In this document: in pieces, positions 1,527 to 29,225 of the stretch
How the letters are laid out: the number at the start of each line of letters is the position of its first letter
Numbering within the stretch: the stretch's first letter is position 1
Assembly: GCF_001017655.1 (NCBI RefSeq)
Contig: NZ_CP010904.1
Coordinates: 2,910,001-2,942,000 of the forward strand
DNA from: Kiritimatiella glycovorans
Lineage (GTDB): Bacteria; Verrucomicrobiota; Kiritimatiellia; Kiritimatiellales; Kiritimatiellaceae
DNA length: 32,000 nt
Direction of reading: 5' to 3'
Made by a program: the position numbers and the translations under genes
The notes under the pieces: model-generated
Databases searched by the model: none
Seen by the model: only the letters and a program-made list of their open reading frames with translations
What the model was told of the DNA's origin: nothing

Positions 1527-1528
1527 GC

Positions 1529-1996: not shown

Positions 1997-2063
1997 CCAA
2001 CCGGCTCCTCTGCGCCCTCCATCCTGGTTCAGGTTCGTGTCTCATTCTTATTGGCACAGAGGG

Positions 2064-2961: not shown

Positions 2962-3136
2962 CCGATGACACGGATGGGATCTCGAAATCCGAATCGAAGT
3001 CGAAATCGGGATTCATAGAGATCATAATTCGTACGCGTACTCGGAGCGCCGAAGGCGCGATCCCACTTCCCCGATTCAAGTAATTCGAGTACGAGTACCG
3101 CTTCGCTGAGTACGAGTACGAGTACGATATTCCCCC
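2962..3136. repeat. Mosaic intergenic repeat, copy a (modules X - hexamer arm - core - hexamer arm - partial Y)
   Basis: It shares long identical blocks with the loci at 7566, 12755, 16792, 22829, 23372 and 24886. The core GGAGCGCCGAAGGCGCGATCCCACTTCCCC lies at 3043-3072. Confidence 0.8.
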
Positions 3137-3151
3137 GGGTGTCCCCATGTT

Positions 3152-3991: not shown

Positions 3992-4082
3992 CCATATCCG
4001 CAGTCAATGACGGGAAAGCAGGGATGAGAGCGGGGCGTTTCAAGCGCAAAACCGGAGCCGTGTAGTCCGTGTCGCCGGGATT

Positions 4083-4832
4083 CTATTTCGCGGTTTCCCG
4101 GTCGACCCGGAAGGTGTTTCTCTCGGCGATCGCGGACGGATTGCAGACCTCCCGGAAAATCTCATCGCCGTCCGCGCTCTTCCTGTACACGCGCACCCAG
4201 TAGCCCTTGAGCTTGCCGGTGCTTGAGGCGGGCGCGTTGTTCTCCCATACGTAGCCGGGCATCAGCTCCAGGCTCTTCAGCACGACGGGACCGGTGGTAA
4301 CGGTCTTTTCGCCGCCGGCTTCGAGCACCGGCACTTCGATACTGCCGCTCACGTCGAGCATCTTGGCGTCGGCATGCGAGGCGGCTTCCTCCTGCTTATA
4401 GAAGAGCATGTAATCCACACGCAGGTTTCTGAAGTCGTGACCGGACCTGTTTTCGAGGAGCACTTCGTAGCGGTATTCCTCCGCCTCAATAATCAGGCCC
4501 TCCTCTTTCCCCGTCTGCTTACCCGTCTCCTTCTTTTCCACTTCGATCCGGAAATCCATTTGCGACCGGAAGCTCTCATCCCGGGCCCATGTGCGTATAT
4601 ATTCACGGTCTTTTTCGCAAAACGCGCTCAGAGGCGCGGAGAGTCGGCGCCCGTCGGATCGTCTCACATTCACCATGTCCCGCCGCTCATTAAACGAAAG
4701 AATCTCGGCTTCGACAGTGCGACCCTGTGTGTCGCGGAACGTGTGCATTTCCGCGTCTGCGGCAATACAAGGCTGGAAGGCCGTAATCACAGCCAGCGAA
4801 AGCAGGCGAAGTATATGAGTATGAGCGCGCAT
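4083..4832 (-). CDS. Secreted hypothetical protein with an N-terminal SHD1-like (SLA1 homology) domain
   Basis: The ATG at 4832 has a GGAGGG RBS 8 nt upstream. It has a signal peptide (MRAHTHILRLLSLAVITAFQPCIAADA). The segment FRDTQGRTVEAEILSFNERRDMVNVRRSDGRRLSAPLSAFCEKDREYI resembles the SHD1 domains common in PVC bacteria (recognised from memory). Confidence 0.6.
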   Translation of the reverse strand: MRAHTHILRLLSLAVITAFQPCIAADAEMHTFRDTQGRTVEAEILSFNERRDMVNVRRSDGRRLSAPLSAFCEKDREYIRTWARDESFRSQMDFRIEVEKKETGKQTGKEEGLIIEAEEYRYEVLLENRSGHDFRNLRVDYMLFYKQEEAASHADAKMLDVSGSIEVPVLEAGGEKTVTTGPVVLKSLELMPGYVWENNAPASSTGKLKGYWVRVYRKSADGDEIFREVCNPSAIAERNTFRVDRETAK

Positions 4833-4891
4833 CCGGTTACCCTCCACAGTTCACCCGTTCAATATCCGCTTTCGGGAGGGAATGCAAGCCG

Positions 4892-6384
4892 GGAAGTGTC
4901 CCGTTGACTGTTGAAACTTGAAGGCGGTCTCCTGAGCGTCCATGTTGGACGCTCGGGGCAAACCAACCCGAAAGGAGACCGCCATGAGTGACAATAGCGT
5001 CCTTGAAGCCCTTGGACAAGTTGAACCGTCTGCAGCAGGAGATGTTTTCCGTGACTGGCTGCGTGGTGAAATGCGAACCCTGATCGCCGATATTCTGGCT
5101 GAAGAGGTCACAGAACTGTGTGGTCCGGCCTACAAGCCGGCAGGGGACAGAGGCTGCCGACGTGCCGGCGGAACCCGCGTAGGACTTCGAATTGACGGTA
5201 TTGATGAGGAGATCCGCAAGCCGCGTGTACGTCGCCATGAGGCAGACACATCGAAGGAGGTCAGGCTTAAAAGTTACGACGCGGTCAACAGGGCCGACGA
5301 CCTTCGTGACCGTATCTTGCGTGCCACAGCTGCCGGAGTCAGTTCACGTGATCAGAAAACCTTGTATCCCGATTCAGCGCCCGGACGCAGCAGGGTTTCC
5401 CGCGCCTGGATTGTCGAGGGCCGACAGCGCATACAGAAGCTCCGTGACCGCGACCTGAAGTCCGAGAGGTTCTTCTGCATGCTGCTGGACGGCATTGTAC
5501 TGTCCGAGGATCTCAGCGCCATTGTGGGGCTGGGCATTACGCTGGACGGCCGCAAAGTTATGCTGGATTTTGAAATAGGCGCACAGGAATCGACAGAAGT
5601 GTGTGACGCATTGCTCGACCGGCTTGTCCACCGCGGTCTTGAGTTCGAGGGCGATCCGTTGGCGGTTCTCGACGGTTCTCGGGCACTTCATAACAGCGTC
5701 TTGAAGCATTTTCCGCGAGCGCGCATTCAACGATGCCTGGTGCATAAGGAACGAAATATTAAGCGTTGTCTCTCCAGGCGTCATCACGGCAGCGTGAGCG
5801 ACCTTTTCAAGCGTCTCCGCTCCGTGGAAGGCGAAGAAGCCGGACGTGAAGCACTCGCCGATCTGGAACGCTTTCTGAGCCGGCACAGCCACAAGGCCCT
5901 GGAATCCCTGCACGAGGCCGGTGAGGAGCTCATTACGGTTCACAAGCTGAATGCGCCGTCCACTCTACACACCACGTTGACGAACACAAACTGCATCGAG
6001 AACCCGTTCCGAAACACACGCGCAAAAATCGGGCGGGTGAAGCGTTGGCGCGCAGAGACGGATCAGGCGGAACGCTGGCTGGCCTATTCGCTTCTGAGGG
6101 CCGAGAAAGGGTTCCGTCGAATCAAAGGCTATCGTCAGATCCCGGTGCTTTTGAAATCCCTGGGCTGGCCATCGGAAGCTGTTGAGGCGTCGCTCCGCTC
6201 CGCCCTTGGCCCTCCGGGCCATCCCGCCTCCGGCGGGAACGGGCTCCACTCCACGACGCCTCACCCCCAGGCAGAGAGCGAAGCGAACTGCCGAACAGGG
6301 ACTGGACAAGTGAATGACAAGGAACTACATCGAAATGAAGACCGAGACCGCCAACGAGTTTCAACAGGATTCGGGACATCCCCG
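4892..6384 (+). mobile_element. IS256-family (Mutator-type) insertion sequence, 1493 bp, apparently intact
   Basis: 40-bp imperfect terminal inverted repeats (30/40 identical, no indel) starting at 4892 and ending at 6384. An 8-bp direct repeat GCAAGCCG flanks it at 4884-4891 and 6385-6392. Confidence 0.85.
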
Positions 6385-6459
6385 CAAGCCGGACCCCCTC
6401 ACGGGTCTCAGCAACAGGAGGCGCAGCTGTGGTACCGGGCCATGGGAATCCGGACCTGA
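4984..6459 (+). CDS. IS256-family transposase (Mutator family, DDE)
   Basis: The ATG at 4984 has an AAGGAG RBS. The family signature is present (RIQRCLVHKERNI, LLDGIVL, VLDGSRAL, NCIENPFRN). Conserved sequence ends near ...GYRQIPVLLKSL (~6165). The ORF then continues ~98 low-complexity codons through the right IR into flanking DNA. Confidence 0.8.
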   Translation: MSDNSVLEALGQVEPSAAGDVFRDWLRGEMRTLIADILAEEVTELCGPAYKPAGDRGCRRAGGTRVGLRIDGIDEEIRKPRVRRHEADTSKEVRLKSYDAVNRADDLRDRILRATAAGVSSRDQKTLYPDSAPGRSRVSRAWIVEGRQRIQKLRDRDLKSERFFCMLLDGIVLSEDLSAIVGLGITLDGRKVMLDFEIGAQESTEVCDALLDRLVHRGLEFEGDPLAVLDGSRALHNSVLKHFPRARIQRCLVHKERNIKRCLSRRHHGSVSDLFKRLRSVEGEEAGREALADLERFLSRHSHKALESLHEAGEELITVHKLNAPSTLHTTLTNTNCIENPFRNTRAKIGRVKRWRAETDQAERWLAYSLLRAEKGFRRIKGYRQIPVLLKSLGWPSEAVEASLRSALGPPGHPASGGNGLHSTTPHPQAESEANCRTGTGQVNDKELHRNEDRDRQRVSTGFGTSPQAGPPHGSQQQEAQLWYRAMGIRT

Positions 6460-8913: not shown

Positions 8914-9166
8914 ACAGGCGGCAGAGCGGAGCGGACGCTTCGGCAGCTTTGCCGATGGTGTGAACGGCAGCGGCACACGGGATGTACGGCTTGGCCCTGC
9001 CCGGTACGCGGACATGCAAATTCTCTGACCCTTTAGCCACTGAAAGGGAGCTCGGAGTCCGGCAGTGGCCGTATACCCCTGAAGGGGAAACGATAAACCG
9101 CCGGCAGAGCACCCACCTTGTTACCGTGGTCCAGAGATGAGCATAACAGTCGGCCGGGCGGGGCCT
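8914..9166 (+). ncRNA. Candidate structured non-coding RNA or long structured 5' leader of rarA (family unassigned)
   Basis: About 250 nt lie between the promoter and the rarA ATG with no convincing ORF. Several local hairpins are present (GTGTG..CACAC, GCCACTG..CAGTGGC, CCCC-TGAA-GGGG). The segment ends with GGCC-GGGCGG-GGCC followed by T5. Confidence 0.3.
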
Positions 9167-9170
9167 TTTT

Positions 9171-13003: not shown

Positions 13004-14038
13004 CTACTCCCTCCCGCGACCGTGGGCTGCGGGGGCCCCGGCGATGTACCTCGCCAGATCCTCGATCCTGACCTGTCCCTGCGCGCGGTCGCGTTCGTCC
13101 ATCAGCACCGCGACCGGCTGACGATTTTTCCGCAGTTTGCTGAAGGCCTGCTGGAGGGTCGCGTCGGCCCGGATCCGTACGGCCTTGCGCACGAGCGGCC
13201 GCACCGGATCGTCCGGCCCCGTCTCCGGATCCATGAGATCGCAGAGATGCAGCGTGCCGATCACGTTATTCCGGCGTCCCCGGAATACCGCGCAGCGGTT
13301 GCGGCCGCTCTTCTGCAGGAGCCGTTCCGCGTCGCGCACCGCGGACTCGACCGACACCGCCGGCACCCGGTCGAGCGGGGTCATCAGCCGCCGCGCGGGT
13401 ATGCGCCGCATCGCGATCACGTTCTCCATCATCTGGTTCTGGTGGGGCGTCAGGGCACCGTGGCGGATGCCCTCGGAAAAGTACATCCGCAGGCGCTGCG
13501 GCGAGAGCTGCAGCAGATCGCGGTGCGGGTCGGCGGGGGAGGTGCGCAGCAGCGCGCGGAAGAGCAGGCGCAGCGGAGTGGTCAGAGGACGGCATACGGC
13601 CAGGGATATCCGCAGGACCATCGCGCCGCGCGTCATCAGCTCCTCCGCCCGCGTCCGGAACAGGTTCTTGGGCAGCAGTTCGGCGAACAGGAACATGGGC
13701 GGCGTGAGCACGAGCGTCGCGGCGATCTCGGCGTTCCATGGGATCAGGCCGAACAGAACCCGCCCCCCTCCGGCGCCGACGCCGTGCGCCAGGAAGGAGG
13801 CCGTCACGGTCTGAGCCGCGAGGTAGTTGACCACGTTGTTGCAGAGCAGGACCGTAAAGACGAAGCGCTGGGGTTCGCGCAGCACCTCCTCCAGCCAGCG
13901 CGCGCGCCGCACGCCGTGGCGCGCGCGGTAGCGCAGGTGGATGCGGCTGACCATGTATCCGCCGGTCTCGCTCCCCGAGTAAAAGGCGGAGAGGATCAGC
14001 GCGCTCAGCAGTTTGACCCATGCGTCCCAGGCGGTCAT
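13004..14038 (-). CDS. DUF21 (CNNM) transmembrane plus CBS-pair protein, lacking the CorC_HlyC C-terminal domain
   Basis: The start at ATG 14038 overlaps the stop of the upstream paralogue (ATGA). The N-terminus ...SAFYSGSETG is typical of DUF21. CBS region: RRLMTPLDRVPAV... Confidence 0.75.
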   Translation of the reverse strand: MTAWDAWVKLLSALILSAFYSGSETGGYMVSRIHLRYRARHGVRRARWLEEVLREPQRFVFTVLLCNNVVNYLAAQTVTASFLAHGVGAGGGRVLFGLIPWNAEIAATLVLTPPMFLFAELLPKNLFRTRAEELMTRGAMVLRISLAVCRPLTTPLRLLFRALLRTSPADPHRDLLQLSPQRLRMYFSEGIRHGALTPHQNQMMENVIAMRRIPARRLMTPLDRVPAVSVESAVRDAERLLQKSGRNRCAVFRGRRNNVIGTLHLCDLMDPETGPDDPVRPLVRKAVRIRADATLQQAFSKLRKNRQPVAVLMDERDRAQGQVRIEDLARYIAGAPAAHGRGRE

Positions 14039-15321
14039 GGCAGCGGCACCTTCAGTTCCTCCTCGGGCGAAGCGAGTTCGAGCAGGACTGTCTCGATCCG
14101 CCTGCCGTGCATCCGCTCCACCGTGAACGCAAGATTCTGCAGCCTCACCGTATCGCCCTCCCGGGGCACCCGCCCGAGCAGGTACACGATCAGCCCCGCG
14201 AGCGTGTCGAAGGGCAGCGATTCCAGCTCCGCCTCCGGCACGTAGCCTCGGAAGAGCGCGCGCCATTCGCGCACCGGCAGCCTGCCGCTGAGGCGGTAGC
14301 GCGCCTCGCCGAGCGTATCCACGTCGAGCGCCTGCCCGGCGTCGAATTCCCCGAGCACCTCTTCCAGCAGATCCTCGATCGTCACCACGCCCGCCAGCCC
14401 GCCGTACTCGTCGACCACGACCACGAACTCGAGGTTCTCCTCGACGAAACGCCGCAGCAGTTCGTCCGCGCGCAGCATCTCGGGCACAAACTTCACGGGC
14501 CGCACGCGCCCGACCCCGTCGCGGCCGTCCCGCCGTGCAAAGTAGAGGTCGCGGACGCCGACGATCCCGATGATGCGATCCTCGTGATCCTCGTACACGG
14601 GGAGCGTGCTGATATCGCGCCGGCGCGCCGCCTCCAGCACCGGCCCCGGATCGCCGCGGCGGTCGAGCAGGAGCACATCCACCCGCGGCGTCATGATCTC
14701 GCTGATCCGGATGCCCGGCAGATGCACGATGTCTTCGATGATCTCCTTTTCCTTCACGGGAACGGAATCGCTGCCGCGCGTCAGATCGAGCAGGATCCGC
14801 AGCTCCTCGCCCGTGATCATCCGCGTGGCCTCGCCGCCCTCGTGTCCGCCCCGGCGCGCGCGGACGGCGCGATACACTGCGCGGACCGGGGAGGTGAGCG
14901 CGAACCAGCCCCGAAGCGGAATCGCGGCCGCCCGGGAGAAGGCGAGCGGATAGGACACCCCCAGCGCCTTCGGAAGGATTTCGCCGAAGAGAATCACCAG
15001 CACCAGGAGGACGATCCCCGCCGCCACCTCGATCCAGCCCCCAGCCGCGCGGCCCAGATGCGTCGCCATTGCCGCGCCCGAGCAGAAGAAGAGCAGATTA
15101 ACGAGCATATTCCCGAACAGAACGGCGACCAGCAGCTCGGCGGGACGCGAGGAAAGCGAGACGATGGCCGCCGCCGTCCTGCCCTCCGAACGCGCGAGCT
15201 GATGGAGCTGGTCCCTCTTCAGAGAGAACAGCGCCGTTTCGGCCCCCGAGAAGAAGGCCGATCCGGCCAGCAGCAGGACCAGCCCCGCCAGTCCCGTTCC
15301 GTATTCGCTCAGTTGCTCCAT
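14035..15321 (-). CDS. HlyC/CorC-family transporter (DUF21 + CBS pair + CorC_HlyC domain)
   Basis: SAFFSGAETALFS (DUF21), CBS pair (ISEIMTPRVDV...; VVVDEYGGLAGVVTIEDLLEEV), and a C-terminal transporter-associated domain (YRLSGRLPVRE...LAGLIVYLLGRVPREGD). Confidence 0.88.
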   Translation of the reverse strand: MEQLSEYGTGLAGLVLLLAGSAFFSGAETALFSLKRDQLHQLARSEGRTAAAIVSLSSRPAELLVAVLFGNMLVNLLFFCSGAAMATHLGRAAGGWIEVAAGIVLLVLVILFGEILPKALGVSYPLAFSRAAAIPLRGWFALTSPVRAVYRAVRARRGGHEGGEATRMITGEELRILLDLTRGSDSVPVKEKEIIEDIVHLPGIRISEIMTPRVDVLLLDRRGDPGPVLEAARRRDISTLPVYEDHEDRIIGIVGVRDLYFARRDGRDGVGRVRPVKFVPEMLRADELLRRFVEENLEFVVVVDEYGGLAGVVTIEDLLEEVLGEFDAGQALDVDTLGEARYRLSGRLPVREWRALFRGYVPEAELESLPFDTLAGLIVYLLGRVPREGDTVRLQNLAFTVERMHGRRIETVLLELASPEEELKVPLP

Positions 15322-19058: not shown

Positions 19059-19258
19059 AGGACGATCTCTTAGGCCGCCGCTCTTATCCGTGAAATTGGT
19101 GTCGTCCGTGGTCGTCCCCGAAATTAAACAATCCGAGCCGAACCTCCGTGGTGCTTTCCGCGTTTTACCTCACGCAACCCTCCCCATCCGCTTTCCCTTT
19201 TTTCATTTCTCAACTTCGTGCCGATGACGTACATTCGGCACTCAATCCCGCAAGGAGC

Positions 19259-20180
19259 ATGAGAATCTTGGATACGTCAACACTGCTCGAGCTTTACAGA
19301 CCCATCTGGACGGCCCGGCGCGTGGATGAAATGGAACAGGCGCTCGCCCACCGCGGCGAGGCGTTCTTCTTCATCCCCGGCTCCGGTCACGAGGCCGCGG
19401 CGGCGCTGGCGCCGCACCTGACCGCCGCCGACTGGCTGCACTGCCACTACCGCGACAAGGCGCTCGCCCTGGCGCGCGGCGTCAGCGTGGAGTCGATGTT
19501 CGCCGCCCTGCTCGCGCGCGACCCGTCCGGCAGCGCGGGGCGCCGTATGCCCGATTTCCCCTGCGATCCGGAACTGAACATCCTCAGCACCCCCACGCTC
19601 GTCGGCAACAACGCCCTGCAGGCGGCCGGCGTCGCGGCGGCGGTGAAGGACCGCGAGGGCGCGCCGGTGGTCTACTGCGGGCTGGGCGACGGCGCGACGC
19701 AGGAAGGCGAGTTCTTCGAGGCGGTGGCGGAGGCCGTCCGCGCGACCCTGCCGGTGCTCTTCGTCGTTCAGGACAACCGCTACGCGCTGTCGACACTCAC
19801 CGCAGGCCAGACGTTCTACTCGACGCCCGACGGCAACCCCGAAACGTTCTACGGTCTCCCGATCCGCCGCGTCGAGGGCGCGGACGTCGCGGCGTGCCAC
19901 GAGACCTTCGGCGCGGCCGTGGCCGAGGCGCGCGAACACCGCCGCCCGCAGATCGTCTGCATGCGCTGTGAGCGGCTGCAGAGTCATACGAACGCCGACG
20001 ACCATACCGCGTACCGCACGGAGGAGGATCTGGCCGAGGCGGCGGAGCACGGCGATCCCCTGCGCAACCTGGAGCGTATGCTGATCGACGCGGGCGAGGA
20101 GGCGTCGCGGCTTCGGGCGATCGAGGAGGAATGCGAACAGGCCGTGCAGGACGCCCTCGCCGCCGCCCGTGCCGGGGCGG
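19259..20180 (+). other. Domain: E1 alpha, TPP-binding (E1_dh type)
   Basis: TPP motif GLGDGATQEGEFFEAVAEAVRATLPVLFVVQDNRYA, and the loop SHTNADDHTAYRTEED equivalent to HSTSDD..YR of branched-chain/pyruvate E1 alpha. Confidence 0.8.
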
Positions 20181-22609
20181 AACCGGAAGCGGCGCTCAGC
20201 GCGAAGAAGCCGCTGCCGGTCGAGCTGACCGACCCGAAACGCGAATATCGCGGCACGGGAGAACGCAAGCTCACCATGATCGCCGCCCTGCGCGCGGCCC
20301 TGCGCGTGCGGCTGGAGGAGGAAGACGCGGCGTACGTCTGGGGTGAGGACCTCGAAGACCCCAAAGGCGACGTCTTCGGGCTCGCGAAGGGACTCAGCTC
20401 CGCCTTCCCGGGCCGCGTGCGCAACGCCCCGCTGAGCGAGGCCACCATCGTCGGCGCCGCCGTCGGCCAGGCGCTCGCGGGCCGCCGGCCGGTCGCGTGT
20501 CTGCAGTTCGCCGACTTCCTGCCGCCCGCGTTCAATCAGATCGCCTCGGAGCTGGGCACGATGTACTGGCGCACCAACGGGCGCCTGGAGGCGCCGGTGA
20601 CCGTGCTCTCGGTCTGCGGCGGATATCGCCCCGGCCTCGGGCCGTTTCACGCGCAGACGCCCTCCGCCGTGGCCGCCCACCTGCCGGGAATCGACGTCTT
20701 TCTGCCCTCGACCGCGGCCGACGCGGCGGGGCTGCTGCTGGCGGCGCTGCGCTCGGACCGGCCGTCGATCTTCTTCTATCCCAAAAACCTCCTGAATGAC
20801 CGCAGCGTCGCGACGTCGGAGGACATCGACCGCCACTTCGTTCCGATCGGGAAGGCGCGAATCGCGCGGGCGGGCGGCGACCTGACGCTCGTCGCGTGGG
20901 GCAGCACTATGCCCACGGCCCTTCGTACGGCGGAGGCCGTCGAGCAGGCCGGCCTCTCGGTCGAGGTCGTCGATCTGCGTACGCTCTCGCCGTGGGACCG
21001 CGAGGCGGTATTTGAATCCACCTCGAAAACCGGCCGGCTGCTGGTGATCGATGAAGACCACCAGACCTGCGGGATGGCGGGCGAGGTCTGCGCCGCGGTG
21101 GCGGAGGCGCAGGGCGAACGGGTTCGCGTGGCGCGGCTGGGCGCCGCCGACGCGTATGTCCCCTACCACTTCGGCAACCAGCTCGACGTGCTGCCGTCGT
21201 TCCGGCCCGTGCTCGAAAAGGCTGCGGAGATGCTCGATTGCTCCGTGCGCTGGAACCGGCGGGCCGAGGAGGAGGAAGGGCGGGTGACGGTCAAGACGCT
21301 GGGATCGAGTCCCTCCGACGAGACGGTGAAGATCGTCGAACTGCACGCCGCCGCGGGCGAGGCGGTCGAAGAGGGCGCGCCGCTGGCGTCGGTCGAGGCG
21401 GACAAGGCGACGATGGAGATCGAGGCGCCGCTGGCGGGTACGGTGGAGAAGGTGCTGCTTTCGGAAGGCGACGAGGTGGACGTCGGGGCACCGCTGCTGA
21501 CGCTGGTGCCGTCGGTGGAGGCCGCGGCGCGGCCGCAGACGACCGACGATCCCGGCATCCCGGTGGTCGAAAAGCAGCGCAGCGTGACGGAGGCGGCGGC
21601 CCCGGCGACGCAAGGACACGAGCGCGAGAGCGCCCCGACGGTGATCTCATCGATCTGCTCCGCCCTGGGATCGCAGCTGAAGACGAACGATGAGCTCGTG
21701 GAAATCTGTCCCGGCTGGTCGCCGGACGACGTCGTACAGCGTACGGGGATCCGGAAGCGGCACTGGATCGGCGAAGGCGAATCGGCGCTCTCGCTCGCCG
21801 TGGACGCCTGTCACAAACTCTTTGAACGCGAGGGCGTGACGGTCAACGACTTCGACGCCATCATCTGCAGCACGGGGACGCCGCCCTCGACCACCCCGTC
21901 GCTGGCCTGCCGGATCCTGAAGGAGCTCAGTCCCGAGGAGGGCGAGACGCTGATCCCGGCGCACGACATCAATGCGGCGTGTTCGGGCTACCTGTACGCC
22001 CTGCAGCAGGCCTGCGACATGCTCGAGCACGACCCCGGCGCGCGGATCCTGCTGGTGACGAGCGAGACGCTCTCGCCGATGCTGAATAAGGATGATCCGG
22101 GCACGTTTTTCCTGTTCGGTGACGCCGCGACCGCTTCGCTGGTCTCGCGGGAACAGCGCGGGGGCAACCTCAACCTGCGGGTCGGGCGACCGGTACTCTC
22201 GGCGATGGGGGCCGAGGAGAAGGTGCTCTACGTGCCCTCGCTGCAGAGCGGGACGTTCATGGAGATGGACGGGCGGAGCGTATTCCGGATCGCCGTGCGG
22301 AAGATGATCGACATGCTCGACCGCGCCTGTGCGCAGGAGGGCGCGACGGTCGACGACCTTTCCCTGATTGTCCCGCACCAGGCGAACGGGAGGATTATTG
22401 AGGCGATACGCAAGGCCATCAAGTTTCCGACGGATAAGGTGTTCTACTACATTCGCGATTACGGCAACACCTCGTCGAACACCATCCCGCTCAGCCTCGA
22501 AGCGCTGCCCTCCGACCTCCCGCCCGGCGGGAAGATCGGGCTGACGGCATTCGGCGGCGGCTTCACCTTTGCCGCCGGCGTGGTGGAGACGCTCGAGCGG
22601 CCGCAATAA
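19259..22609 (+). CDS. Multidomain fusion protein (1116 aa): 2-oxoacid dehydrogenase E1 alpha (TPP) + E1 beta + lipoyl domain + FabH-type 3-oxoacyl synthase III
   Basis: The ATG at 19259 has an AAGGAG RBS. One frame with no stops covers all four homology regions. Details are given in the four domain features below. Confidence 0.85.
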   Translation: MRILDTSTLLELYRPIWTARRVDEMEQALAHRGEAFFFIPGSGHEAAAALAPHLTAADWLHCHYRDKALALARGVSVESMFAALLARDPSGSAGRRMPDFPCDPELNILSTPTLVGNNALQAAGVAAAVKDREGAPVVYCGLGDGATQEGEFFEAVAEAVRATLPVLFVVQDNRYALSTLTAGQTFYSTPDGNPETFYGLPIRRVEGADVAACHETFGAAVAEAREHRRPQIVCMRCERLQSHTNADDHTAYRTEEDLAEAAEHGDPLRNLERMLIDAGEEASRLRAIEEECEQAVQDALAAARAGAEPEAALSAKKPLPVELTDPKREYRGTGERKLTMIAALRAALRVRLEEEDAAYVWGEDLEDPKGDVFGLAKGLSSAFPGRVRNAPLSEATIVGAAVGQALAGRRPVACLQFADFLPPAFNQIASELGTMYWRTNGRLEAPVTVLSVCGGYRPGLGPFHAQTPSAVAAHLPGIDVFLPSTAADAAGLLLAALRSDRPSIFFYPKNLLNDRSVATSEDIDRHFVPIGKARIARAGGDLTLVAWGSTMPTALRTAEAVEQAGLSVEVVDLRTLSPWDREAVFESTSKTGRLLVIDEDHQTCGMAGEVCAAVAEAQGERVRVARLGAADAYVPYHFGNQLDVLPSFRPVLEKAAEMLDCSVRWNRRAEEEEGRVTVKTLGSSPSDETVKIVELHAAAGEAVEEGAPLASVEADKATMEIEAPLAGTVEKVLLSEGDEVDVGAPLLTLVPSVEAAARPQTTDDPGIPVVEKQRSVTEAAAPATQGHERESAPTVISSICSALGSQLKTNDELVEICPGWSPDDVVQRTGIRKRHWIGEGESALSLAVDACHKLFEREGVTVNDFDAIICSTGTPPSTTPSLACRILKELSPEEGETLIPAHDINAACSGYLYALQQACDMLEHDPGARILLVTSETLSPMLNKDDPGTFFLFGDAATASLVSREQRGGNLNLRVGRPVLSAMGAEEKVLYVPSLQSGTFMEMDGRSVFRIAVRKMIDMLDRACAQEGATVDDLSLIVPHQANGRIIEAIRKAIKFPTDKVFYYIRDYGNTSSNTIPLSLEALPSDLPPGGKIGLTAFGGGFTFAAGVVETLERPQ
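20264..21238 (+). other. Domain: E1 beta (transketolase pyrimidine-binding plus C-terminal domains)
   Basis: LTMIAALRAAL...VWGEDL...APLSEATIVGAAVGQALAGRRPVACLQFADFLPPAFNQI...PSTAADAAGLLLAALRSDRPSIFFYPK...VVDLRTLSPWD. Confidence 0.8.
21281..21508 (+). other. Domain: lipoyl-attachment (biotinyl/lipoyl fold), followed by an Ala/Pro-rich linker (21509-21637)
   Basis: LASVEADKATMEIEAPLAGTVEKVLLSEGDEVDVGAPLLTL. The DKA lysine codon is at 21404-21406. The motif is E-x-DKA (lipoyl type), not the biotinyl MKM type. Confidence 0.75.
21638..22606 (+). other. Domain: KAS III / FabH-like condensing enzyme with an intact Cys-His-Asn triad
   Basis: HDINAACSGYLYAL (Cys codon 21980-21982), VPHQANGRI (His 22376-22378), YGNTSSNTIP (Asn 22466-22468), and the C-terminal FGGGFTF. 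Confidence 0.8.
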
Positions 22610-22734
22610 ATTCGCACCCCGAACGGATCAAGCCCGCGGGGCTGCAAAGGGGATGGTGGAAAAGTGAAAAGAAATCGAGACCTCAGCTTTCACCTGTTCC
22701 ACATCTTCATCTCTGATAAAATGCCCCACTTTCC

Positions 22735-22808
22735 GGGCCCGTAGCTCAGTCGGTCAGAGCAGGAGACTCATAATCTCTTGGTCGGGGGTTCGAGTCCCTC
22801 CGGGCCCA
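22735..22808 (+). tRNA. tRNA with anticodon CAT (elongator Met or lysidine-modified Ile2 type; not an initiator)
   Basis: Manual cloverleaf: acceptor GGGCCCG/CGGGCCC, D arm GCTC..GAGC, anticodon stem GGAGA/TCTCT with loop CTCATAA, and T arm GGGGG-TTCGAGT-CCCTC. It is 74 nt with no encoded CCA. Confidence 0.9.
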
Positions 22809-22828
22809 TTCCTTCACACCCCCGCCCC

Positions 22829-23047
22829 GTACTCAGCGAAAATGGGATTCACCATGAAGGCCATGAAGAGCATGAAGGTTGGTTGAGGGGGGGGGACGTA
22901 ATCCGTACTCGCACTCGTACTCGTACTCGTACTCGGAGCGCCGAAGGCGCGATCCCACTCCCCCTGTTCAAGGAACTCGAGTACGAATTATGTTCTCTCT
23001 GAATCCCGGCTTCGACTTCGATCCGGATTTCGAGATCCCATCCGTGT
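22829..23047. repeat. Mosaic intergenic repeat, copy d (partial Y rc - nonamer array x3 - G-run - GTACTC x5 - core - arm - X rc)
   Basis: CATGAAGNN x3 at 22853-22879, five hexamer units (four GTACTC plus one GCACTC variant) at 22905-22934, core at 22935-22963, and the X module (reverse complement of 2969-3034) at 22981-23047. Confidence 0.85.
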
Positions 23048-23056
23048 TCTCTCTTA

Positions 23057-23259
23057 CGCTCGTAGTAGGCCCGCAGGTCCGCGAAGCGGACAAGGGCCGT
23101 TATCTTTCACGCGCCTGGCCTGCCGGAGGGGCAGGCGTGCGGCGCTACTACGAACTTCCTCACGCTCGTAGTAGGCCCGCAGGTCCGCGCAGCAGACAAG
23201 GGCCGTTATCTTTCACGCGCCTGGCCTGCCGGGGGCAGACTTGCGGCGCTACTACGAAC
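23057..23259. repeat. Tandem direct duplication, 2 x ~100 bp units (period 106 bp), each internally self-complementary
   Basis: Units at 23057-23155 and 23163-23259 are ~90% identical. Each is bounded by TCGTAGTAGG...CGCTACTACGA and contains GTCCGC-GAA-GCGGAC and GCCTGCC-GGAG-GGGCAGGC hairpins (unit 1). Confidence 0.85.
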
Positions 23260-23371
23260 GCTTGTCGTCTCCCATCCCGACCCCGGCATCCTCTGTGACC
23301 GCTGTGGTGAATCCCCGTCCCGCCTCTTCCCCGAACGGCTCCACCACAAAAAATTTGCGAAGAACCAAAAA

Positions 23372-23419
23372 GGATCGCGCCTTCAGCCCTCCAAGTACGC
23401 GTACGAATCATGTTCACCC
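23372..23419. repeat. Mosaic intergenic repeat, degenerate core plus X-like stub (copy d2)
   Basis: GGATCGCGCCTTCAGCCCTCCAAGTACGCGTACGAATCATGTTCACCC parallels the reverse complement of 3021-3063 and 12918-12935. Confidence 0.65.
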
Positions 23420-23701
23420 TTGCCCTTTTTCACTCACCTGGCCTCCTGATCCGTGAAGATTGCCGCCCACTAAAAATCCTGCGGATCCAAGGGGAAAATG
23501 ACGCAATGTGCGACCCTCACACTCGAAGAAGATTGTAGCCTGTCAGTCAGCCATTACAATTATCGTCCTTCGCGAATGGGATGCTAGTGTCCGAATGAAA
23601 AAGATGGTGCGCCTGGGCAAACGGGCGGCGCAAGCGGAACCGGAAAAGATGAAAGGCGCGGCAGCAGAGAACGCACACACGAATAAGCAAAGGCAGGTCC
23701 G

Positions 23702-25828: not shown

Positions 25829-26497
25829 TCAGCCGGATTTATTCAATGCGCCCTGAAGATGAAGCTTATGTGAAAGCACGGCGAGAGTGGATGCGAGGTC
25901 CTCTCGCTGGAGGATAACCTCCTCCGGCACGTGGAGGCGGGTGGGGGTGAAGTTCCATATTCCGCGTATCCCGCCCGCGACCATTGCGTCGGCCACCTCC
26001 TGGGCGACGGCGGCCGGGACGGTGAGGATACCGAGCCGCACGTGCATCCGTCGCGCGAGATCCGCGAGCCGGTCGATATGCAGCACCGTTTTACCGTAGA
26101 TCCTGCGGCCGACCGTCCCGGAGTCGACATCGAACGCGGCGGTGATGCGCAGGCCGTGCTGTTCGAATCCCCTGTACCCGAGCAGGGCCTGACCGAGCGA
26201 ACCCGTGCCGGCGAGAAACGCGTCGGTGGTGTTCGACCAGCCGAGAAACTCCTCGACGGACTCGATCAGTTCATGCAGCGGAAATCCCAGCCGGGGTTTT
26301 CCCCGCGCGCCGGTGATTGCAAGGTCTTTACGGACAACGATCGGGTCCAGCTCCAGTTCGCGCGCCAGAACGGCGCCGGAGGCGTATTCCGCGCCCTCTT
26401 CGCGCATCCGTCGCAGCAGACGGAGATAAAGGGGGAGCCGCTTGAGCGTCGGCACCCCCGCCGTCTTACATGCCATGGCGTCCGGTTGATCACTCAT
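25829..26497 (-). CDS. rex: Redox-sensing transcriptional repressor Rex
   Basis: N-terminal winged helix (LKRLPLYLRLL), Rossmann NADH-binding motif (AGTGSLGQALL), and the ILTVPAAVAQEV...GIRGIWNFTP blocks. An alternative GTG start lies at 26515. Confidence 0.88.
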   Translation of the reverse strand: MSDQPDAMACKTAGVPTLKRLPLYLRLLRRMREEGAEYASGAVLARELELDPIVVRKDLAITGARGKPRLGFPLHELIESVEEFLGWSNTTDAFLAGTGSLGQALLGYRGFEQHGLRITAAFDVDSGTVGRRIYGKTVLHIDRLADLARRMHVRLGILTVPAAVAQEVADAMVAGGIRGIWNFTPTRLHVPEEVILQREDLASTLAVLSHKLHLQGALNKSG

Positions 26498-26645
26498 GAC
26501 CCGTGAGTTAAACACGGGCCCCGCTATATTACGATCTTTTTCAATCGATATTATTATATTTATTGCTTGCCCGCCCGGCGCGCGCAGTGTATCGGTGTTT
26601 ATATATCGATATCAGAGGAGCTATATTAACGAGGGGGGGTACTCC

Positions 26646-29225
26646 ATGACGGATGAAGCGAAAAAGGTATTGCAGGAGATGGTCGATCGTGTGCGAACGG
26701 CGCAGGAGCGCTATGCCGTGTTTGATCAGGAGGCGGTGGACGGGATATTCCGCCACGCCGCCCTCGCGGCGAACCGTGAACGCATCCGGCTTGCCCGCAT
26801 GGCGGCGGAAGAGACCGGCATGGGCATCGTGGAGGATAAGGTCATCAAAAACCACTTCGCGAGTGAATTCATCTACAACAAGTACAAGGACACCCAGACC
26901 TGTGGGGTACTGGAGGAGGACCCCTCGTTCGGGATCCGCCGCATCGCGGAGCCGATCGGGGTAATCGCGGGCGTCGTGCCGACCACCAATCCCACCTCGA
27001 CCGCGATTTTCAAGGCGCTGCTCGCCCTGAAAACCCGCAACGGCATCATTTTTTCGCCGCACCCGCGCGCAAAAGCGTGCACGGCGGAGGCCGCTCGAGT
27101 GGTCGGGCGTGCAGCCGTCGAAGCCGGCGCGCCGGAGGGTTTGATCGCCTGCATTGAGGAGCCTGCCGTCGAATTGTCGAACGCGCTTATGAAGCATCCC
27201 GACATCCGTCTCGTCCTGGCGACCGGAGGGCCGGGCATGGTTCGCGCCGCCTACAGCAGCGGCAAGCCGGCGCTCGGCGTGGGAGCGGGCAATACACCGG
27301 CGGTGATCGATGAAACCGCCTGCGTGCGGACGGCCGTCAACAGCATCCTGCTCAGCAAGACATTCGACCACGGCGTCATCTGCGCCAGCGAACAGAGCGC
27401 CGTAGCCGTGGACGCGGTTTACGGCGAGGTCCGCGACGAGTTCGAGCGGCGCGGGGCGGCTATACTTACGCCCGGCCAGAAAGAAAAAGTCGGCGCCGTA
27501 CTGCTCAAAGACGGAAAACTGAACGCGGCGAACGTAGGCCAGCCAGCGGCAAAGATTGCCGCCGCAGCGGGCATCGAGGTGCCGCCGGAAACAAAGGTGC
27601 TCGTCGCCGAGGTCGATGAGGTCGGCGAACACGAACCCTTTGCCTTCGAGAAGCTCAGCCCGGTGCTGGCCCTCTACCGTGCCCCCGCATTCGACCGGGC
27701 CGTGGACCGGGCCGTGGAGCTGGTGACGTTCGGAGGAATCGGTCACACCTCGGTGCTGTATACCGATCCCCGCAATACGGAGCGCATCGACCGCTTCGGC
27801 GCGCGCATGAAGACCGGCCGGGTGCTGGTCAACATGCCCAGCAGCCAGGGCGCCATCGGCGATATCTACAACTTCAAACTCGAACCCTCGCTCACCCTCG
27901 GCTGCGGGAGCTGGGGCGGCAACAGCGTGAGCGAAAACGTGGGGGTCAAACACCTGATGAACATCAAGACCGTGGCGGAACGGCGCGAGAACATGCTCTG
28001 GTTCCGGGTACCGCCGAAAGTGTACTTCAAGTACGGCTGCCTGCCGGTCGCGATGGGTGAACTGGCCGGGCGGAAGCGCGCGCTTATCGTGACTGACAAG
28101 CCGCTCTACGATCTCGGCTTCGCCGACCGCATCGCCACGGTGCTCGACGGGATGGGCATCGATCACCAGACCTTCTATGATGTCCGGCCCGACCCCGATC
28201 TGGCCACGGTCCGCGCGGGACTGAAGGTGATGACCACGTTCCGGCCGGATGTCGTGATCGCACTGGGAGGCGGCTCGCCGATGGACGCCGCCAAGATCAT
28301 GTGGCTCATGTATGAAAATCCGGGCATGAAGTTCGAGGACATGGCGATGCGGTTCATGGACATCCGCAAGCGGATCTACGCTTTCCCCGAAACGGGTCGC
28401 AGGGCGATCCTGGTCGCCGTGCCGACAACCAGTGGTACGGGTTCGGAAGTGACGCCTTTCGCGGTGGTCACCGACGACGCGACCGGGGCCAAGTACCCGA
28501 TCGCGGACTACGCGCTGACGCCGGACATGGCGATCGTCGATCCGGAGCTGGTGATGCACATGCCGGCGAACCTGACGGCGTACGGCGGCGTGGATGCCCT
28601 GACACATGCCCTCGAGGCGATCGTCAGCGTCCTGAGCACGGAGTTCACAAACTGCCAGGCTCTGGAGGCGGTCAGGCTGCTGTTCAAGTACCTCCCCGAC
28701 GCCTACGAGCACGGTGCGGCGGACCGCAAAGCACGCGAGAAGGTTCATTACGCGGCGACCTTGGCGGGCATGGCGTTCGCCAATGCCTTCCTCGGCGTCT
28801 GCCACAGCATGGCGCACAAGCTCGGCGCCGCGTTCGACCTGCCGCACGGTCTGGCCAACGCGCTGCTGATCGGCGAGGTGATCCGCTACAACGCCACGGA
28901 CCGACCGCTCAAACAGGCCGCCTTCCCGCAATACAGCTGGCCGACGGCCAGGGAGCGGTACGCGCGGGTTGCGGACTACCTGCAGCTCGGCGGCGCAACC
29001 CCGGACGAGAAGGTGGAACGGCTGATCGCCGCGGTCGGGGACCTGAAGCAGCGGCTGGACATACCGGCGACGATACGGGAGGCCGGGGTCCCCGAGGGTG
29101 CATTCCGGGAACGTCTCGACGAGCTGGCTGAAGATGCGTTCGACGATCAGTGCACAGGCGCCAACCCGCGCTACCCGCTCATCGGCGAACTCCGCCGTCT
29201 CTACCGTCGTGCGTACGGGAAATAA
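26646..29225 (+). CDS. adhE: Bifunctional acetaldehyde-CoA / alcohol dehydrogenase
   Basis: 859 aa. N-terminal acylating ALDH domain (catalytic Cys context FDHGVICASEQS) and a C-terminal iron-ADH domain (GGGSPMDAAK, metal-binding His residues in CHSMAHKLG). The ATG at 26646 has a G-rich RBS. Confidence 0.93.
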   Translation: MTDEAKKVLQEMVDRVRTAQERYAVFDQEAVDGIFRHAALAANRERIRLARMAAEETGMGIVEDKVIKNHFASEFIYNKYKDTQTCGVLEEDPSFGIRRIAEPIGVIAGVVPTTNPTSTAIFKALLALKTRNGIIFSPHPRAKACTAEAARVVGRAAVEAGAPEGLIACIEEPAVELSNALMKHPDIRLVLATGGPGMVRAAYSSGKPALGVGAGNTPAVIDETACVRTAVNSILLSKTFDHGVICASEQSAVAVDAVYGEVRDEFERRGAAILTPGQKEKVGAVLLKDGKLNAANVGQPAAKIAAAAGIEVPPETKVLVAEVDEVGEHEPFAFEKLSPVLALYRAPAFDRAVDRAVELVTFGGIGHTSVLYTDPRNTERIDRFGARMKTGRVLVNMPSSQGAIGDIYNFKLEPSLTLGCGSWGGNSVSENVGVKHLMNIKTVAERRENMLWFRVPPKVYFKYGCLPVAMGELAGRKRALIVTDKPLYDLGFADRIATVLDGMGIDHQTFYDVRPDPDLATVRAGLKVMTTFRPDVVIALGGGSPMDAAKIMWLMYENPGMKFEDMAMRFMDIRKRIYAFPETGRRAILVAVPTTSGTGSEVTPFAVVTDDATGAKYPIADYALTPDMAIVDPELVMHMPANLTAYGGVDALTHALEAIVSVLSTEFTNCQALEAVRLLFKYLPDAYEHGAADRKAREKVHYAATLAGMAFANAFLGVCHSMAHKLGAAFDLPHGLANALLIGEVIRYNATDRPLKQAAFPQYSWPTARERYARVADYLQLGGATPDEKVERLIAAVGDLKQRLDIPATIREAGVPEGAFRERLDELAEDAFDDQCTGANPRYPLIGELRRLYRRAYGK

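What the first reader, a model, noticed from the sequence alone, without database searches (positions are those of the whole stretch)
21281..21637. Lipoyl swinging arm present, but no E2 acyltransferase core and no E3 anywhere in the window
The lipoyl domain (DKA lysine at 21404-21406) and its flexible linker are followed by KAS III, not by a CAT-like E2 core. I find no DHRxxDG-type E2 active-site motif anywhere in the ORF. No dihydrolipoamide dehydrogenase, lipoate ligase/synthase, ACP or malonyl transferase is encoded within about 10 kb on either side. After acyl transfer the dihydrolipoyl arm must be re-oxidised, so the system needs a trans-acting E3 or another oxidant. That is a notable requirement if the host is the strict fermenter that the Rex/AdhE genes suggest.
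Basis: partly seen in the sequence, partly recalled or inferred. Interest (0 to 1): 0.7.

Follow-up and report, generated by a model that had tools for sequence, protein, structure and literature searches.

The report
Lipoyl arm feeding a ketosynthase directly
One 1113-residue protein of the anaerobe Kiritimatiella glycovorans joins a keto-acid decarboxylase, a lipoyl swinging arm and a fatty-acid-starting ketosynthase (FabH) with no E2 core, so it probably starts branched fatty acids straight from a keto acid without coenzyme A, a route not described in the papers I could search.

Summary
The ORF at 19148-22609 (likely start 19268) encodes E1alpha-E1beta-lipoyl-linker-KAS III. The lipoyl lysine is at 21404-21406. 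Neither this ORF nor the rest of the 32-kb window contains an E2 core, PSBD, E3, lipoate ligase or synthase, ACP or FabD.

The gene is from Kiritimatiella glycovorans, a strict fermenter. The same six-domain protein occurs in at least 80 species of Kiritimatiellia, Lentisphaerae, Planctomycetota and Spirochaetota. In these the lipoyl Lys, the two E1 His residues and the KAS III Cys-His-Asn triad are invariant or nearly so.

Sister proteins carry an E2 core, E2 core plus ACP, a thioesterase, or KAS III-KR-ACP at the same C-terminal position. The last domain is therefore most likely the acceptor of the acyl-lipoyl group. A lipoate ligase gene lies within 2 kb upstream in the four closest relatives, directly upstream in three.

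All cultured Kiritimatiellota make only even-numbered iso and straight fatty acids, which is the signature of an isobutyryl primer. My best reading is that 2-oxoisovalerate passes to isobutyryl-lipoyl, then to the KAS III Cys, and is condensed with malonyl-ACP.

The arm must be re-oxidised in trans. Some Kiritimatiellia MAGs have E3, but I could not determine this for the present genome.

The parts
19268..22609 (+). Whole gene for E1alpha-E1beta-lipoyl-KAS III (1113 aa from the TTG at 19268; the open frame extends back to the GTG at 19148).
   Evidence: P0001 is 100% identical, 1113 aa, and named 'beta-ketoacyl-ACP synthase 3 [Kiritimatiella glycovorans]'. An AAGGAG motif at 19252-19257 lies 10 nt before the TTG at 19268. 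GC3 is 0.87.
19316..20188 (+). E1 alpha-like ThDP-binding module (ORF aa 57-347). It includes the GDG motif at 19685-19693 and His280 at 19985-19987.
   Evidence: PF00676 at E=3.6e-42. Best solved match is the T. thermophilus 2-oxoacid dehydrogenase E1 alpha, 1um9_A, at 1.3e-39. G140, N170 and H240 (P0001 numbering) are invariant and D141 and G142 nearly so in 31 sequences at 36-53% identity.
20267..21184 (+). E1 beta-like module (Transket_pyr aa 374-550 and Transketolase_C aa 568-679). It includes His501 at 20648-20650.
   Evidence: PF02779 at 7.3e-22 and PF02780 at 4.1e-29. 1um9_B matches at 8.6e-62. H461 and E391 (P0001 numbering) are invariant.
21281..21508 (+). Lipoyl domain (ORF aa 712-787), with the conserved LGSSPSDE loop and the VEADKA hairpin.
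   Evidence: PF00364 at 3.8e-16. Matches the E2p lipoyl domain of 7b9k_A at 4e-16. The AF2 model shows an all-beta fold at pLDDT about 75-90.
21404..21406 (+). Codon AAG for the predicted lipoyl-lysine (Lys753 in the ORF, K713 in P0001).
   Evidence: Read directly from the sequence. Lys is present at this column in all 86 related loci and in 30 of 31 distant representatives.
21509..21640 (+). Ala/Pro/Glu/Thr-rich linker (ORF aa 788-831). It contains a conserved short strand, PGIPVVEK, at 21551-21574.
   Evidence: This is the least conserved segment (0.57 against 0.72-0.83 for the other segments). Its length is 30-84 aa, median 44, across the family. pLDDT is below 50 at P0001 residues 757-760 and 771-788, and residues 764-769 are modelled as a strand.
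21641..22588 (+). KAS III (FabH-type) domain (ORF aa 832-1147). Cys945 is at 21980-21982, His1077 at 22376-22378, Asn1107 at 22466-22468 and Arg1082 at 22391-22393.
   Evidence: NCBIfam PRK09352 at 251.7 bits. 41 solved FabH-family sequences match at E<=1e-20, the best being 2ebd_A at 1.3e-42. Cys, His and Asn are invariant in 120 close and 31 distant members.

Best explanation
The protein is a single-chain '2-oxoacid-to-3-oxoacyl-ACP' initiation enzyme for type II fatty-acid synthesis.

Proposed steps:
1. The fused E1 alpha-beta module uses ThDP to decarboxylate a short 2-oxoacid. This is most likely 2-oxoisovalerate and possibly also pyruvate.
2. E1 reductively acylates the lipoyl-Lys753 of its own swinging arm.
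3. No CAT-like E2 core passes the acyl group to CoA. Instead the arm delivers it to Cys945 of the C-terminal KAS III domain.
4. KAS III decarboxylates malonyl-ACP (His1077, Asn1107; ACP docking at Arg1082) and forms the 3-oxoacyl-ACP that enters elongation.
5. The dihydrolipoyl arm left behind is re-oxidised in trans, by a free dihydrolipoyl dehydrogenase acting as it does on the glycine-cleavage H protein, or by another thiol-disulfide acceptor.

Shown here: the domain order, intact catalytic residues in all three modules, the absence of E2 core, PSBD and E3 from the protein and the window, conservation across several phyla, domain-swapped sister architectures, and lipoate-ligase linkage in close relatives.

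Inferred: the identity of the 2-oxoacid, lipoylation in vivo, direct lipoyl-to-Cys transfer, and the re-oxidant.
For: Architecture and intact active sites:
- The KAS III triad and the equivalent of E. coli Arg249 (ACP docking) are invariant in 120 close homologues. They are invariant or 30/31 in representatives at 36-53% identity.
- The lipoyl Lys, both E1 His residues and the ThDP motif behave the same way.

Position of the C-terminal domain:
- Relatives found with the same E1ab-lipoyl module carry at that position an E2 core (P0156, P0198, P0207, P0183), E2 core plus ACP (P0192), a thioesterase (P0158) or KAS III-KR-ACP (P0126).
- One is the loading end of a PKS/NRPS (P0184).
- This is the pattern expected if the C-terminal domain is whatever accepts the acyl group from the arm.

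Lipoate ligase linkage:
- A lipoate-protein ligase gene lies upstream on the same strand in the four closest relatives. It is directly upstream in L006, L007 and L009 and 2 kb away in L003.

CoA-binding residues:
- E. coli Arg151 is one of the two residues that sandwich the CoA adenine (my recollection of the FabH structures). It is Q, P or T in close members and never Arg in 31 distant ones.
- The Trp32 equivalent is displaced by a 4-residue insertion and is not conserved outside Kiritimatiellia.

Phenotype:
- K. glycovorans has i-C14:0 (42%), C18:0 and i-C18:0, with no odd-numbered and no anteiso fatty acids.
- Pontiella spp. and Tichowtungia likewise have only i-C12 to i-C20 and straight even chains (PMC5148204, PMC7356697, PMC10880615).
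- Iso-even chains arise from an isobutyryl primer (PMC5013041).
Against: - No biochemical evidence exists, and I know of no ketosynthase shown to accept its primer from a lipoyl arm.
- The lipoyl-lysine arm is shorter than phosphopantetheine, and the FabH active site lies at the bottom of a pantetheine tunnel.
- The E1 specificity is not established by sequence. It is closest to the T. thermophilus branched-chain E1, but below every NCBIfam equivalog cut-off.
- The Planctomycetota and Spirochaetota carriers were not checked for iso-even fatty acids.
- I could not establish whether K. glycovorans has a second stand-alone FabH, an E3 or a lipoate ligase.
- The abundant straight-chain C18:0 needs either pyruvate as a second substrate or another initiator.
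- The Arg151 and Trp32 argument rests on alignment of a variable region.
Confidence: 0.6

Rival explanations
1. The KAS III domain works only as a transacylase. It stands in for the missing E2 core and moves the acyl group from the lipoyl arm to CoA or to holo-ACP. Condensation is then done by another enzyme.
For: It occupies the position that an E2 core occupies in sister proteins. From my own knowledge, several KAS III-like enzymes are acyltransferases rather than condensing enzymes, and E. coli FabH has weak acetyl-CoA:ACP transacylase activity.
Against: His and Asn of the triad serve malonyl decarboxylation. They are invariant in all 151 members examined, as is the ACP-docking Arg. A pure transacylase needs only the Cys. 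The variant P0126 continues with KR and ACP, which makes sense only after a condensation.
Confidence: 0.12
2. The mechanism is the same but the role is different. The enzyme starts a specialised lipid or polyketide rather than bulk membrane fatty acids.
For: Related modules sit at the head of PKS/NRPS-type proteins (P0126, P0184). One relative (L003) lies near MBOAT, a methyltransferase, a phosphopantetheinyl transferase and an adenylation-PCP-TE gene.
Against: - In K. glycovorans and most relatives the gene is solitary among unrelated housekeeping genes, and no neighbourhood is conserved.
- It is present throughout the class.
- The KAS III part reaches the NCBIfam FabH subfamily cut-off.
- The dominant membrane fatty acids are exactly those expected from it.
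Confidence: 0.12
3. The arm does not feed KAS III. The KAS III domain uses ordinary acyl-CoA, the E1-lipoyl part works with a separate E2/E3 encoded elsewhere, and the fusion only co-localises two steps.
For: No direct evidence for lipoyl-to-Cys transfer exists. Canonical PDH genes (AceE-AceF-Lpd) occur in some Kiritimatiellia MAGs.
Against: - A lipoyl domain covalently attached to E1 and lacking a PSBD and core cannot join an E2 assembly.
- A trans E2 core would have to service a foreign arm.
- The same module is fused to alternative acceptors in sister proteins.
- The Arg151 equivalent is absent throughout the family and the Trp32 equivalent is not conserved.
Confidence: 0.08
4. The small domain is a biotinyl carrier or an unmodified structural hairpin domain, not a lipoyl domain.
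For: Pfam PF00364 does not separate biotinyl from lipoyl domains. In Planctomycetota members the residue before the Lys is T, S, A or E rather than D.
Against: - The sequence has the motif E-A-D-K-A rather than M-K-M.
- Its best matches are E2 lipoyl domains.
- It is fused to an E1 whose two lipoyl-directed His residues are invariant.
- A lipoate ligase gene is adjacent in close relatives.
- No carboxylase or carboxyltransferase domain is present.
Confidence: 0.03

Closest known systems
Branched-chain 2-oxoacid dehydrogenase complex (Bkd E1/E2/E3) followed by FabH, as in Bacillus, Listeria and Staphylococcus
   Same: The overall chemistry matches: 2-oxoisovalerate gives an isobutyryl thioester, which is condensed with malonyl-ACP to give iso-even fatty acids (PMC5013041). 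The E1 is of the heterotetramer type, closest to the T. thermophilus branched-chain E1. The condensing enzyme is FabH-type.
   Different: Here all parts are on one chain. There is no E2 catalytic core, no PSBD and no 24/60-mer scaffold. Presumably no acyl-CoA intermediate forms, and E3 is neither tethered nor encoded nearby.
Single-chain E1ab-lipoyl-E2core proteins (P0156, P0198, P0207, P0183), which are uncharacterised database relatives
   Same: They share the E1 alpha-beta fusion and the lipoyl domain, at 34-49% identity over query residues about 1-780. They also lack a PSBD.
   Different: Their C-terminal acceptor domain is the CAT-like 2-oxoacid_dh core (PF00198), not KAS III.
QncN/QncL/QncM and NapB/NapD systems of quinocarcin and naphthyridinomycin biosynthesis (my recollection of Peng et al. 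2012 PNAS; not checked here)
   Same: A ThDP E1-like enzyme loads a lipoyl arm, and the acyl group ends on a carrier protein of a biosynthetic line rather than on CoA.
   Different: Those systems use separate subunits, a transketolase-type donor and an E2-like acyltransferase domain to reach the ACP. No ketosynthase takes the acyl group from the arm. P0192 and P0184 resemble them more than the window protein does.
Glycine cleavage H protein with L protein (E3)
   Same: It is a lipoyl carrier without a PSBD whose dihydrolipoyl form is re-oxidised by a freely diffusing E3. This is the most likely model for recycling here (established knowledge).
   Different: The H protein is a free small protein that carries an aminomethyl group, not an acyl group.

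Membership tests
2-oxoacid dehydrogenase multienzyme complex (PDH/BCKDH type) | ThDP-dependent E1 with a GDG...N motif and the two His residues that act in reductive acylation | tested here: met
   PF00676, PF02779 and PF02780 match. G140, N170, H240 and H461 (P0001 numbering) are invariant and D141 and G142 nearly so.
2-oxoacid dehydrogenase multienzyme complex (PDH/BCKDH type) | Lipoyl domain with a Lys at the hairpin tip | tested here: met
   PF00364 at 3.8e-16 with the motif VEADKA. Lys is conserved in 86 of 86 loci.
2-oxoacid dehydrogenase multienzyme complex (PDH/BCKDH type) | CAT-like E2 catalytic core (PF00198, DHRxxDG) that forms the scaffold and makes acyl-CoA | tested here: not met
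   The ORF has no PF00198 hit. The motif is absent from all six frames, and tblastn with the SucB core gave E>=0.045.
2-oxoacid dehydrogenase multienzyme complex (PDH/BCKDH type) | Peripheral subunit-binding domain that tethers E1 and E3 | tested here: not met
   No PF02817 hit. The lipoyl domain is followed only by a 44-aa linker of low confidence.
2-oxoacid dehydrogenase multienzyme complex (PDH/BCKDH type) | Dedicated E3 (dihydrolipoyl dehydrogenase) | tested here: inconclusive
   E3 is absent from the window. It is absent from all but 2 of the 86 family loci (L080, L073). It is present in some Kiritimatiellia MAGs. The K. glycovorans genome outside the window could not be searched.
FabH / KAS III initiation condensing enzyme | Cys-His-Asn catalytic triad in a thiolase-fold domain pair | tested here: met
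   The motifs AACSG, PHQAN and GNTSS are aligned to solved FabHs. The triad is invariant in 120 plus 31 members.
FabH / KAS III initiation condensing enzyme | Score above the curated family threshold | tested here: met
   NCBIfam PRK09352 (subfamily) scores 251.7 against a cut-off of 249, which is marginal. TIGR00747 scores 216 against 292 and is not reached.
FabH / KAS III initiation condensing enzyme | ACP-docking Arg (E. coli R249) and the basic patch | tested here: met
   The R249 equivalent is present in 119/120 and 30/31 members. R36 is invariant in close members. K214 and K256 are K or R in close members only.
FabH / KAS III initiation condensing enzyme | Acyl-CoA primer site (adenine stacked between E. 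coli W32 and R151) | tested here: not met
   The R151 equivalent is Q, P or T in close members and F, P, Y or K in distant ones, never R. W32 is displaced by a 4-aa insertion and is conserved in only 10 of 31 distant members. The residue roles are from my memory of the E. coli structures, and the alignment of this region is uncertain.
Lipoylated proteins | Covalent lipoate on the Lys in vivo | not testable with these tools
   The support is indirect only. LplA genes lie upstream on the same strand in L006, L007, L009 and L003.

The most novel reading that the evidence does not exclude
This is a previously undescribed enzyme class in which a lipoyl swinging arm, rather than CoA or ACP, primes a ketosynthase. 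Fatty-acid synthesis would then be initiated directly from a 2-oxoacid with no acyl-CoA intermediate. The enzyme would be the main initiator responsible for the iso-even-only fatty-acid signature of Kiritimatiellota. A bolder extension is that in E3-poor strict anaerobes the arm is recycled by a non-E3 thiol-disulfide acceptor.
Probability: 0.5. Interest if true: 0.75.

Novelty: new variant of a known kind. Interest (0 to 1): 0.66.

Why it matters
If the arm really primes KAS III, the list of known acyl donors to ketosynthases (CoA, ACP) gains a third member. It would also show that the 2-oxoacid dehydrogenase E1-lipoyl unit is a portable loading module. That module can be plugged into an E2 core, a thioesterase, a ketosynthase or a PKS/NRPS line.

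It gives a concrete, testable genetic explanation for an unusual chemotaxonomic marker of Kiritimatiellota (only even-numbered iso and straight chains). It also suggests a compact single-gene part for engineering branched-chain fatty acids or polyketide starters directly from keto acids.

Databases currently label the protein either 'beta-ketoacyl-ACP synthase 3' or '2-oxoisovalerate dehydrogenase E1 component'. Each label describes only part of it.

Tried and rejected
1. Looking for E3 and lipoate ligase in the rest of the K. glycovorans genome.
- A homology search with a Kiritimatiellia LplA listed only the top 120 hits, none from the 2,949,723-bp contig.
- The same was true of a search with the E3 of L090, where all listed hits were at least 67% identical.
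- The result is inconclusive, not negative.
- Look-ups of P0001 and of the window-edge gene to extend the window failed because they are not on record.

2. Neighbourhoods of LplA genes as a route to a Kiritimatiellia E3. Only L090 and L088 showed canonical E1/E2/E3 operons, and L088 is of unknown taxon.

3. Conserved operon partners.
- No ACP, FabD, LipA, LipB or GcvH lies within 10 kb in any of the 86 family loci.
- No second FabH lies within 10 kb in any of the 90 loci held.
- Neighbourhoods are otherwise unrelated.
- The E3 near the fusion in L080 is separated from it by NUDIX and GST genes, so I do not count it as an operon.

4. My first claim, from the phmmer alignment, was that E. coli Trp32 is replaced by Asp. 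MAFFT instead aligns an invariant Trp four residues upstream, so I downgraded it to 'displaced, not conserved family-wide'.

5. Literature. Six full-text searches ran and one search failed. None found a paper describing an E1-lipoyl-KAS III fusion. The library omits most subscription journals, so this is absence of evidence only.

6. The promoter and terminator scan around the gene was uninformative.

They served only as BLAST or alignment probes.
Full report
**Observation**

The ORF at 19148-22609 (+) translates to 1153 aa. Pfam finds these domains, in order:
- E1_dh at aa 57-347
- Transket_pyr at aa 374-550
- Transketolase_C at aa 568-679
- Biotin_lipoyl at aa 727-786 (E=3.8e-16)
- ACP_syn_III at aa 940-1006
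- ACP_syn_III_C at aa 1061-1147

NCBIfam matches FabH (PRK09352) over aa 832-1147 at 251.7 bits, just above its cut-off of 249.

The finding's coordinates 21281-21637 are aa 712-830, that is the lipoyl domain plus the linker. Bases 21404-21406 are AAG, the Lys of VEADKATMEIEAP.

Solved-structure matches are strictly domain by domain:
- E1 alpha and beta match the Thermus thermophilus branched-chain E1 (1um9_A at 1.3e-39, 1um9_B at 8.6e-62).
- The lipoyl domain matches an E. coli E2p lipoyl domain (7b9k_A, 4e-16).
- The C-terminal part matches 41 FabH-family sequences (best 2ebd_A, 1.3e-42).

There is no 2-oxoacid_dh core and no E3_binding (PSBD) domain.

I picked the coding ORFs of this 64% GC window by their GC3 pattern and scanned 20 of them with Pfam. 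The neighbours are:
- IS and transposase genes and a sulfatase fragment
- LacI, a HAD hydrolase, MgsA and RNase Y
- two CNNM/CorC genes and a TPR protein
- TraB/GumN and a hypothetical protein
- the fusion gene itself
- a GH5 glycosidase and another hypothetical protein
- Rex, DUF4340 and an ABC auxiliary protein
- The long ORF after Rex was not scanned.

None is an E2, E3, lipoate ligase or synthase, ACP or FabD. tblastn of the whole window with such proteins, and six-frame searches for the E2 and E3 signature motifs, found nothing.

**Identity and gene model**

The product is 100% identical to a 1113-aa protein of Kiritimatiella glycovorans on a 2.95-Mb contig, named 'beta-ketoacyl-ACP synthase 3' (P0001). 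That model starts at the TTG at 19268, ten bases after an AAGGAG motif.

K. glycovorans L21-Fru-AB is an obligately anaerobic, strictly fermentative bacterium without quinones or cytochromes (PMC5148204).

**A conserved family, not an accident**

- More than 120 proteins of about 1105 aa and 55-63% identity share all six domains.
- A scan of species-representative genomes returned 80 full-length copies. They come from Kiritimatiellia, Pontiellaceae and Tichowtungia, and also from Lentisphaerae, Pirellulaceae and other Planctomycetota, Spirochaetaceae including Alkalispirochaeta, and one gammaproteobacterial MAG.
- A search of 1.84 billion representatives found about 38 near-full-length clusters at the 50% identity level, down to 37% identity. 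Thirty of these passed my length and HQAN-motif filter and were aligned.
- The Lys aligned with K753 is present in all 86 loci examined and in 30 of 31 distant representatives.
- In those 31 sequences the GDG...N ThDP motif is conserved (Gly and Asn invariant, the other two positions nearly so). The E1 alpha His (ORF His280), the E1 beta His (His501) and the KAS III Cys945, His1077 and Asn1107 are invariant. The equivalent of E. coli FabH Arg249 (ACP docking) is 30/31.
- Selection has therefore kept every module catalytically equipped.

**What the C-terminal domain is for**

The representative search also recovered proteins that share the E1ab-lipoyl part but end differently:
- E2 core: P0156, P0198, P0207, P0183
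- E2 core followed by an ACP: P0192
- thioesterase: P0158
- KAS III followed by KR and ACP: P0126
- a PKS/NRPS that begins E1-lipoyl-E2core-ACP-KS: P0184

None has a PSBD. This interchange at one position is what one expects if the E1ab-lipoyl unit is a loading module and the last domain is the acceptor of the acyl-dihydrolipoyl group. In the window protein that acceptor is a complete condensing enzyme.

**Lipoyl rather than biotinyl**

- The motif is E-A-D-K-A, not M-K-M.
- The matches are to E2 lipoyl domains.
- In the four closest relatives a lipoate-protein ligase gene (PF21948) lies upstream on the same strand. The gap is about 100-180 bp in L006, L007 and L009 and 2 kb in L003.
- No such gene lies in this window.

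**Signs that the primer site differs from ordinary FabH**

In E. coli FabH the CoA adenine stacks between Trp32 and Arg151 (my recollection of the crystal structures).
- In this family the Arg151 position is Q, P or T, and it is never Arg in distant members.
- The Trp is displaced by a four-residue insertion and is not conserved beyond Kiritimatiellia.
- E. coli Phe87, which narrows the primer pocket, is Thr in all close members.
- These points are suggestive only, because this region aligns poorly.

**Structure prediction**

AlphaFold2 with 36 homologues gave mean pLDDT 83.6 and pTM 0.65.
- The domains are modelled confidently.
- Confidence is very low in the linker (P0001 residues 757-760 and 771-788), which agrees with a flexible tether.
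- A short conserved strand, PGIPVVEK (21551-21574), sits inside the linker. Its role is unknown.
- The linker is 30-84 residues long across the family, with a median of 44.

**Link to phenotype**

- K. glycovorans makes i-C14:0 (42%), C18:0 and i-C18:0. It makes no odd-numbered and no anteiso fatty acids (PMC5148204, PMC7356697).
- Pontiella desulfatans, P. sulfatireligans, P. agarivorans and Tichowtungia aerotolerans likewise list only even iso and even straight chains.
- Iso-even chains come from an isobutyryl primer, iso-odd from isovaleryl and anteiso from 2-methylbutyryl (PMC5013041).
- A dedicated 2-oxoisovalerate-to-KAS III channel that excludes the C6 keto acids would explain this unusual profile. 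Pyruvate as a second substrate, or a separate FabH, would give the straight chains. This part is inference.

**Mechanism proposed**

1. ThDP-dependent decarboxylation of 2-oxoisovalerate on the E1ab module.
2. Reductive acylation of lipoyl-Lys753.
3. Swing of the arm to KAS III and transfer of isobutyryl to Cys945.
4. Decarboxylative condensation with malonyl-ACP to give 3-oxo-4-methylpentanoyl-ACP.
5. Re-oxidation of the dihydrolipoyl arm in trans.

Steps 1, 2 and 4 follow from established mechanisms of the domain families and from the intact residues shown here. Step 3 is the new and unproven step. Step 5 is required by the chemistry, but its catalyst is unknown.

The logic is sound: two electrons stay on the arm. 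It is not an oddity for a fermenter, for these reasons:
- E3 reduces NAD+, not O2.
- Kiritimatiellia MAGs encode dihydrolipoyl dehydrogenases (P0421, P0428, P0430).
- One relative has LplA beside AceE-AceF-Lpd (L090).
- Only one oxidation is needed per chain started.

From my own knowledge, dihydrolipoyl groups can also reduce thioredoxin-like proteins. Examples are the mycobacterial Lpd-SucB-AhpD system and E. coli glutaredoxins in lpd mutants. A non-E3 route is therefore conceivable.

I could not determine whether K. glycovorans itself has an E3 or a lipoate ligase. The capped searches list only the 120 best hits, and this genome was not among them. Attempts to extend the window failed.

Among the 86 family loci an E3 lies within 10 kb only twice. 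In L080 a lipoyl-Lpd gene is separated from the fusion by NUDIX and GST genes. In L073 the E3 is about 8 kb away. E3 is therefore not a linked partner.

**Rivals**

- KAS III could be a mere transacylase. The invariant His and Asn, and the KR-ACP extension in P0126, argue for real condensation.
- The product could be a specialised lipid. However, the gene is solitary, present across the class and of FabH grade, and the bulk fatty acids fit.
- The arm could be irrelevant to KAS III. However, a PSBD-less, core-less arm fused to E1 has no other evident client, and the domain-swap series argues otherwise.
- A biotinyl role is very unlikely.

**Comparison and novelty**

The protein works like a Bkd complex plus FabH compressed into one chain. 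It fails two defining tests of the 2-oxoacid dehydrogenase complex (E2 core and PSBD). It is also atypical for FabH, being fused and having an altered CoA site.

Six full-text searches found no description of an E1-lipoyl-KAS III protein. Databases label it by one half or the other. I rate it a new variant of a known kind: known parts and known chemistry, with a new hand-off.

Interest is moderately high. The hand-off is directly testable with one recombinant protein, and it would explain a phylum-level lipid signature.

Noticed in passing
window 22735-22808 (+): A tRNA-Met (CAT) gene lies 125 nt after the stop of the fusion gene, inside a 1.1-kb stretch (22610-23701) with no convincing ORF.
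   Followed up: partly
window 8991-9168 (+): A 6S RNA (Rfam RF00013, 88 bits) lies between a HAD-like gene and the MgsA/RarA gene.
   Followed up: no
window 525-6459: This is a mobile-element patch. It holds an rve integrase (525-1526, -), an HTH_Tnp_1 gene (1529-1996, -), a group II intron D1-D4 RNA match (2689-2921, -) and a Mutator-family transposase (4942-6459, +). A sulfatase gene (3227-3991) is reduced to its C-terminal part and is probably a disrupted pseudogene.
   Followed up: no
window 21551-21574 (+): Inside the otherwise variable lipoyl-to-KAS III linker there is a conserved motif, PGIPVVEK (P762, G763 and P765 of P0001 are nearly or fully invariant). AlphaFold models it as a short beta strand. 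It may dock the arm onto one of the catalytic domains.
   Followed up: partly
P0126, P0158, P0192, P0184 (representative search hits): The E1ab-lipoyl unit also occurs fused to a thioesterase, to E2core-ACP, to KASIII-KR-ACP, and at the head of a PKS/NRPS (E2core-ACP-KS-MT-C-A). This suggests a general keto-acid loading module for assembly lines.
   Followed up: partly
L006 13435-15440: In the closest relative the gene order is LplA, the fusion gene, then NifU and a class V aminotransferase (NifS/IscS-like) on the same strand. This Fe-S assembly pair next to a lipoyl protein may be coincidental.
   Followed up: no
window 25829-26515 (-) and 26496-29225 (+): A Rex-type repressor gene (Put_DNA-bind_N plus CoA_binding) is divergent from a long ORF whose translation looks like AdhE (not scanned with Pfam). 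This is the usual arrangement for redox-sensing control of ethanol fermentation. The two listed ORFs overlap by 20 nt, so the true start of the presumed adhE is probably further downstream.
   Followed up: no
window 13004-15321 (-): Two tandem CNNM/CBS (CorC-type) transporter genes lie here. Their maximal ORFs overlap by about 230 nt, so the start of the downstream gene (13004-14266) is probably later than listed.
   Followed up: no
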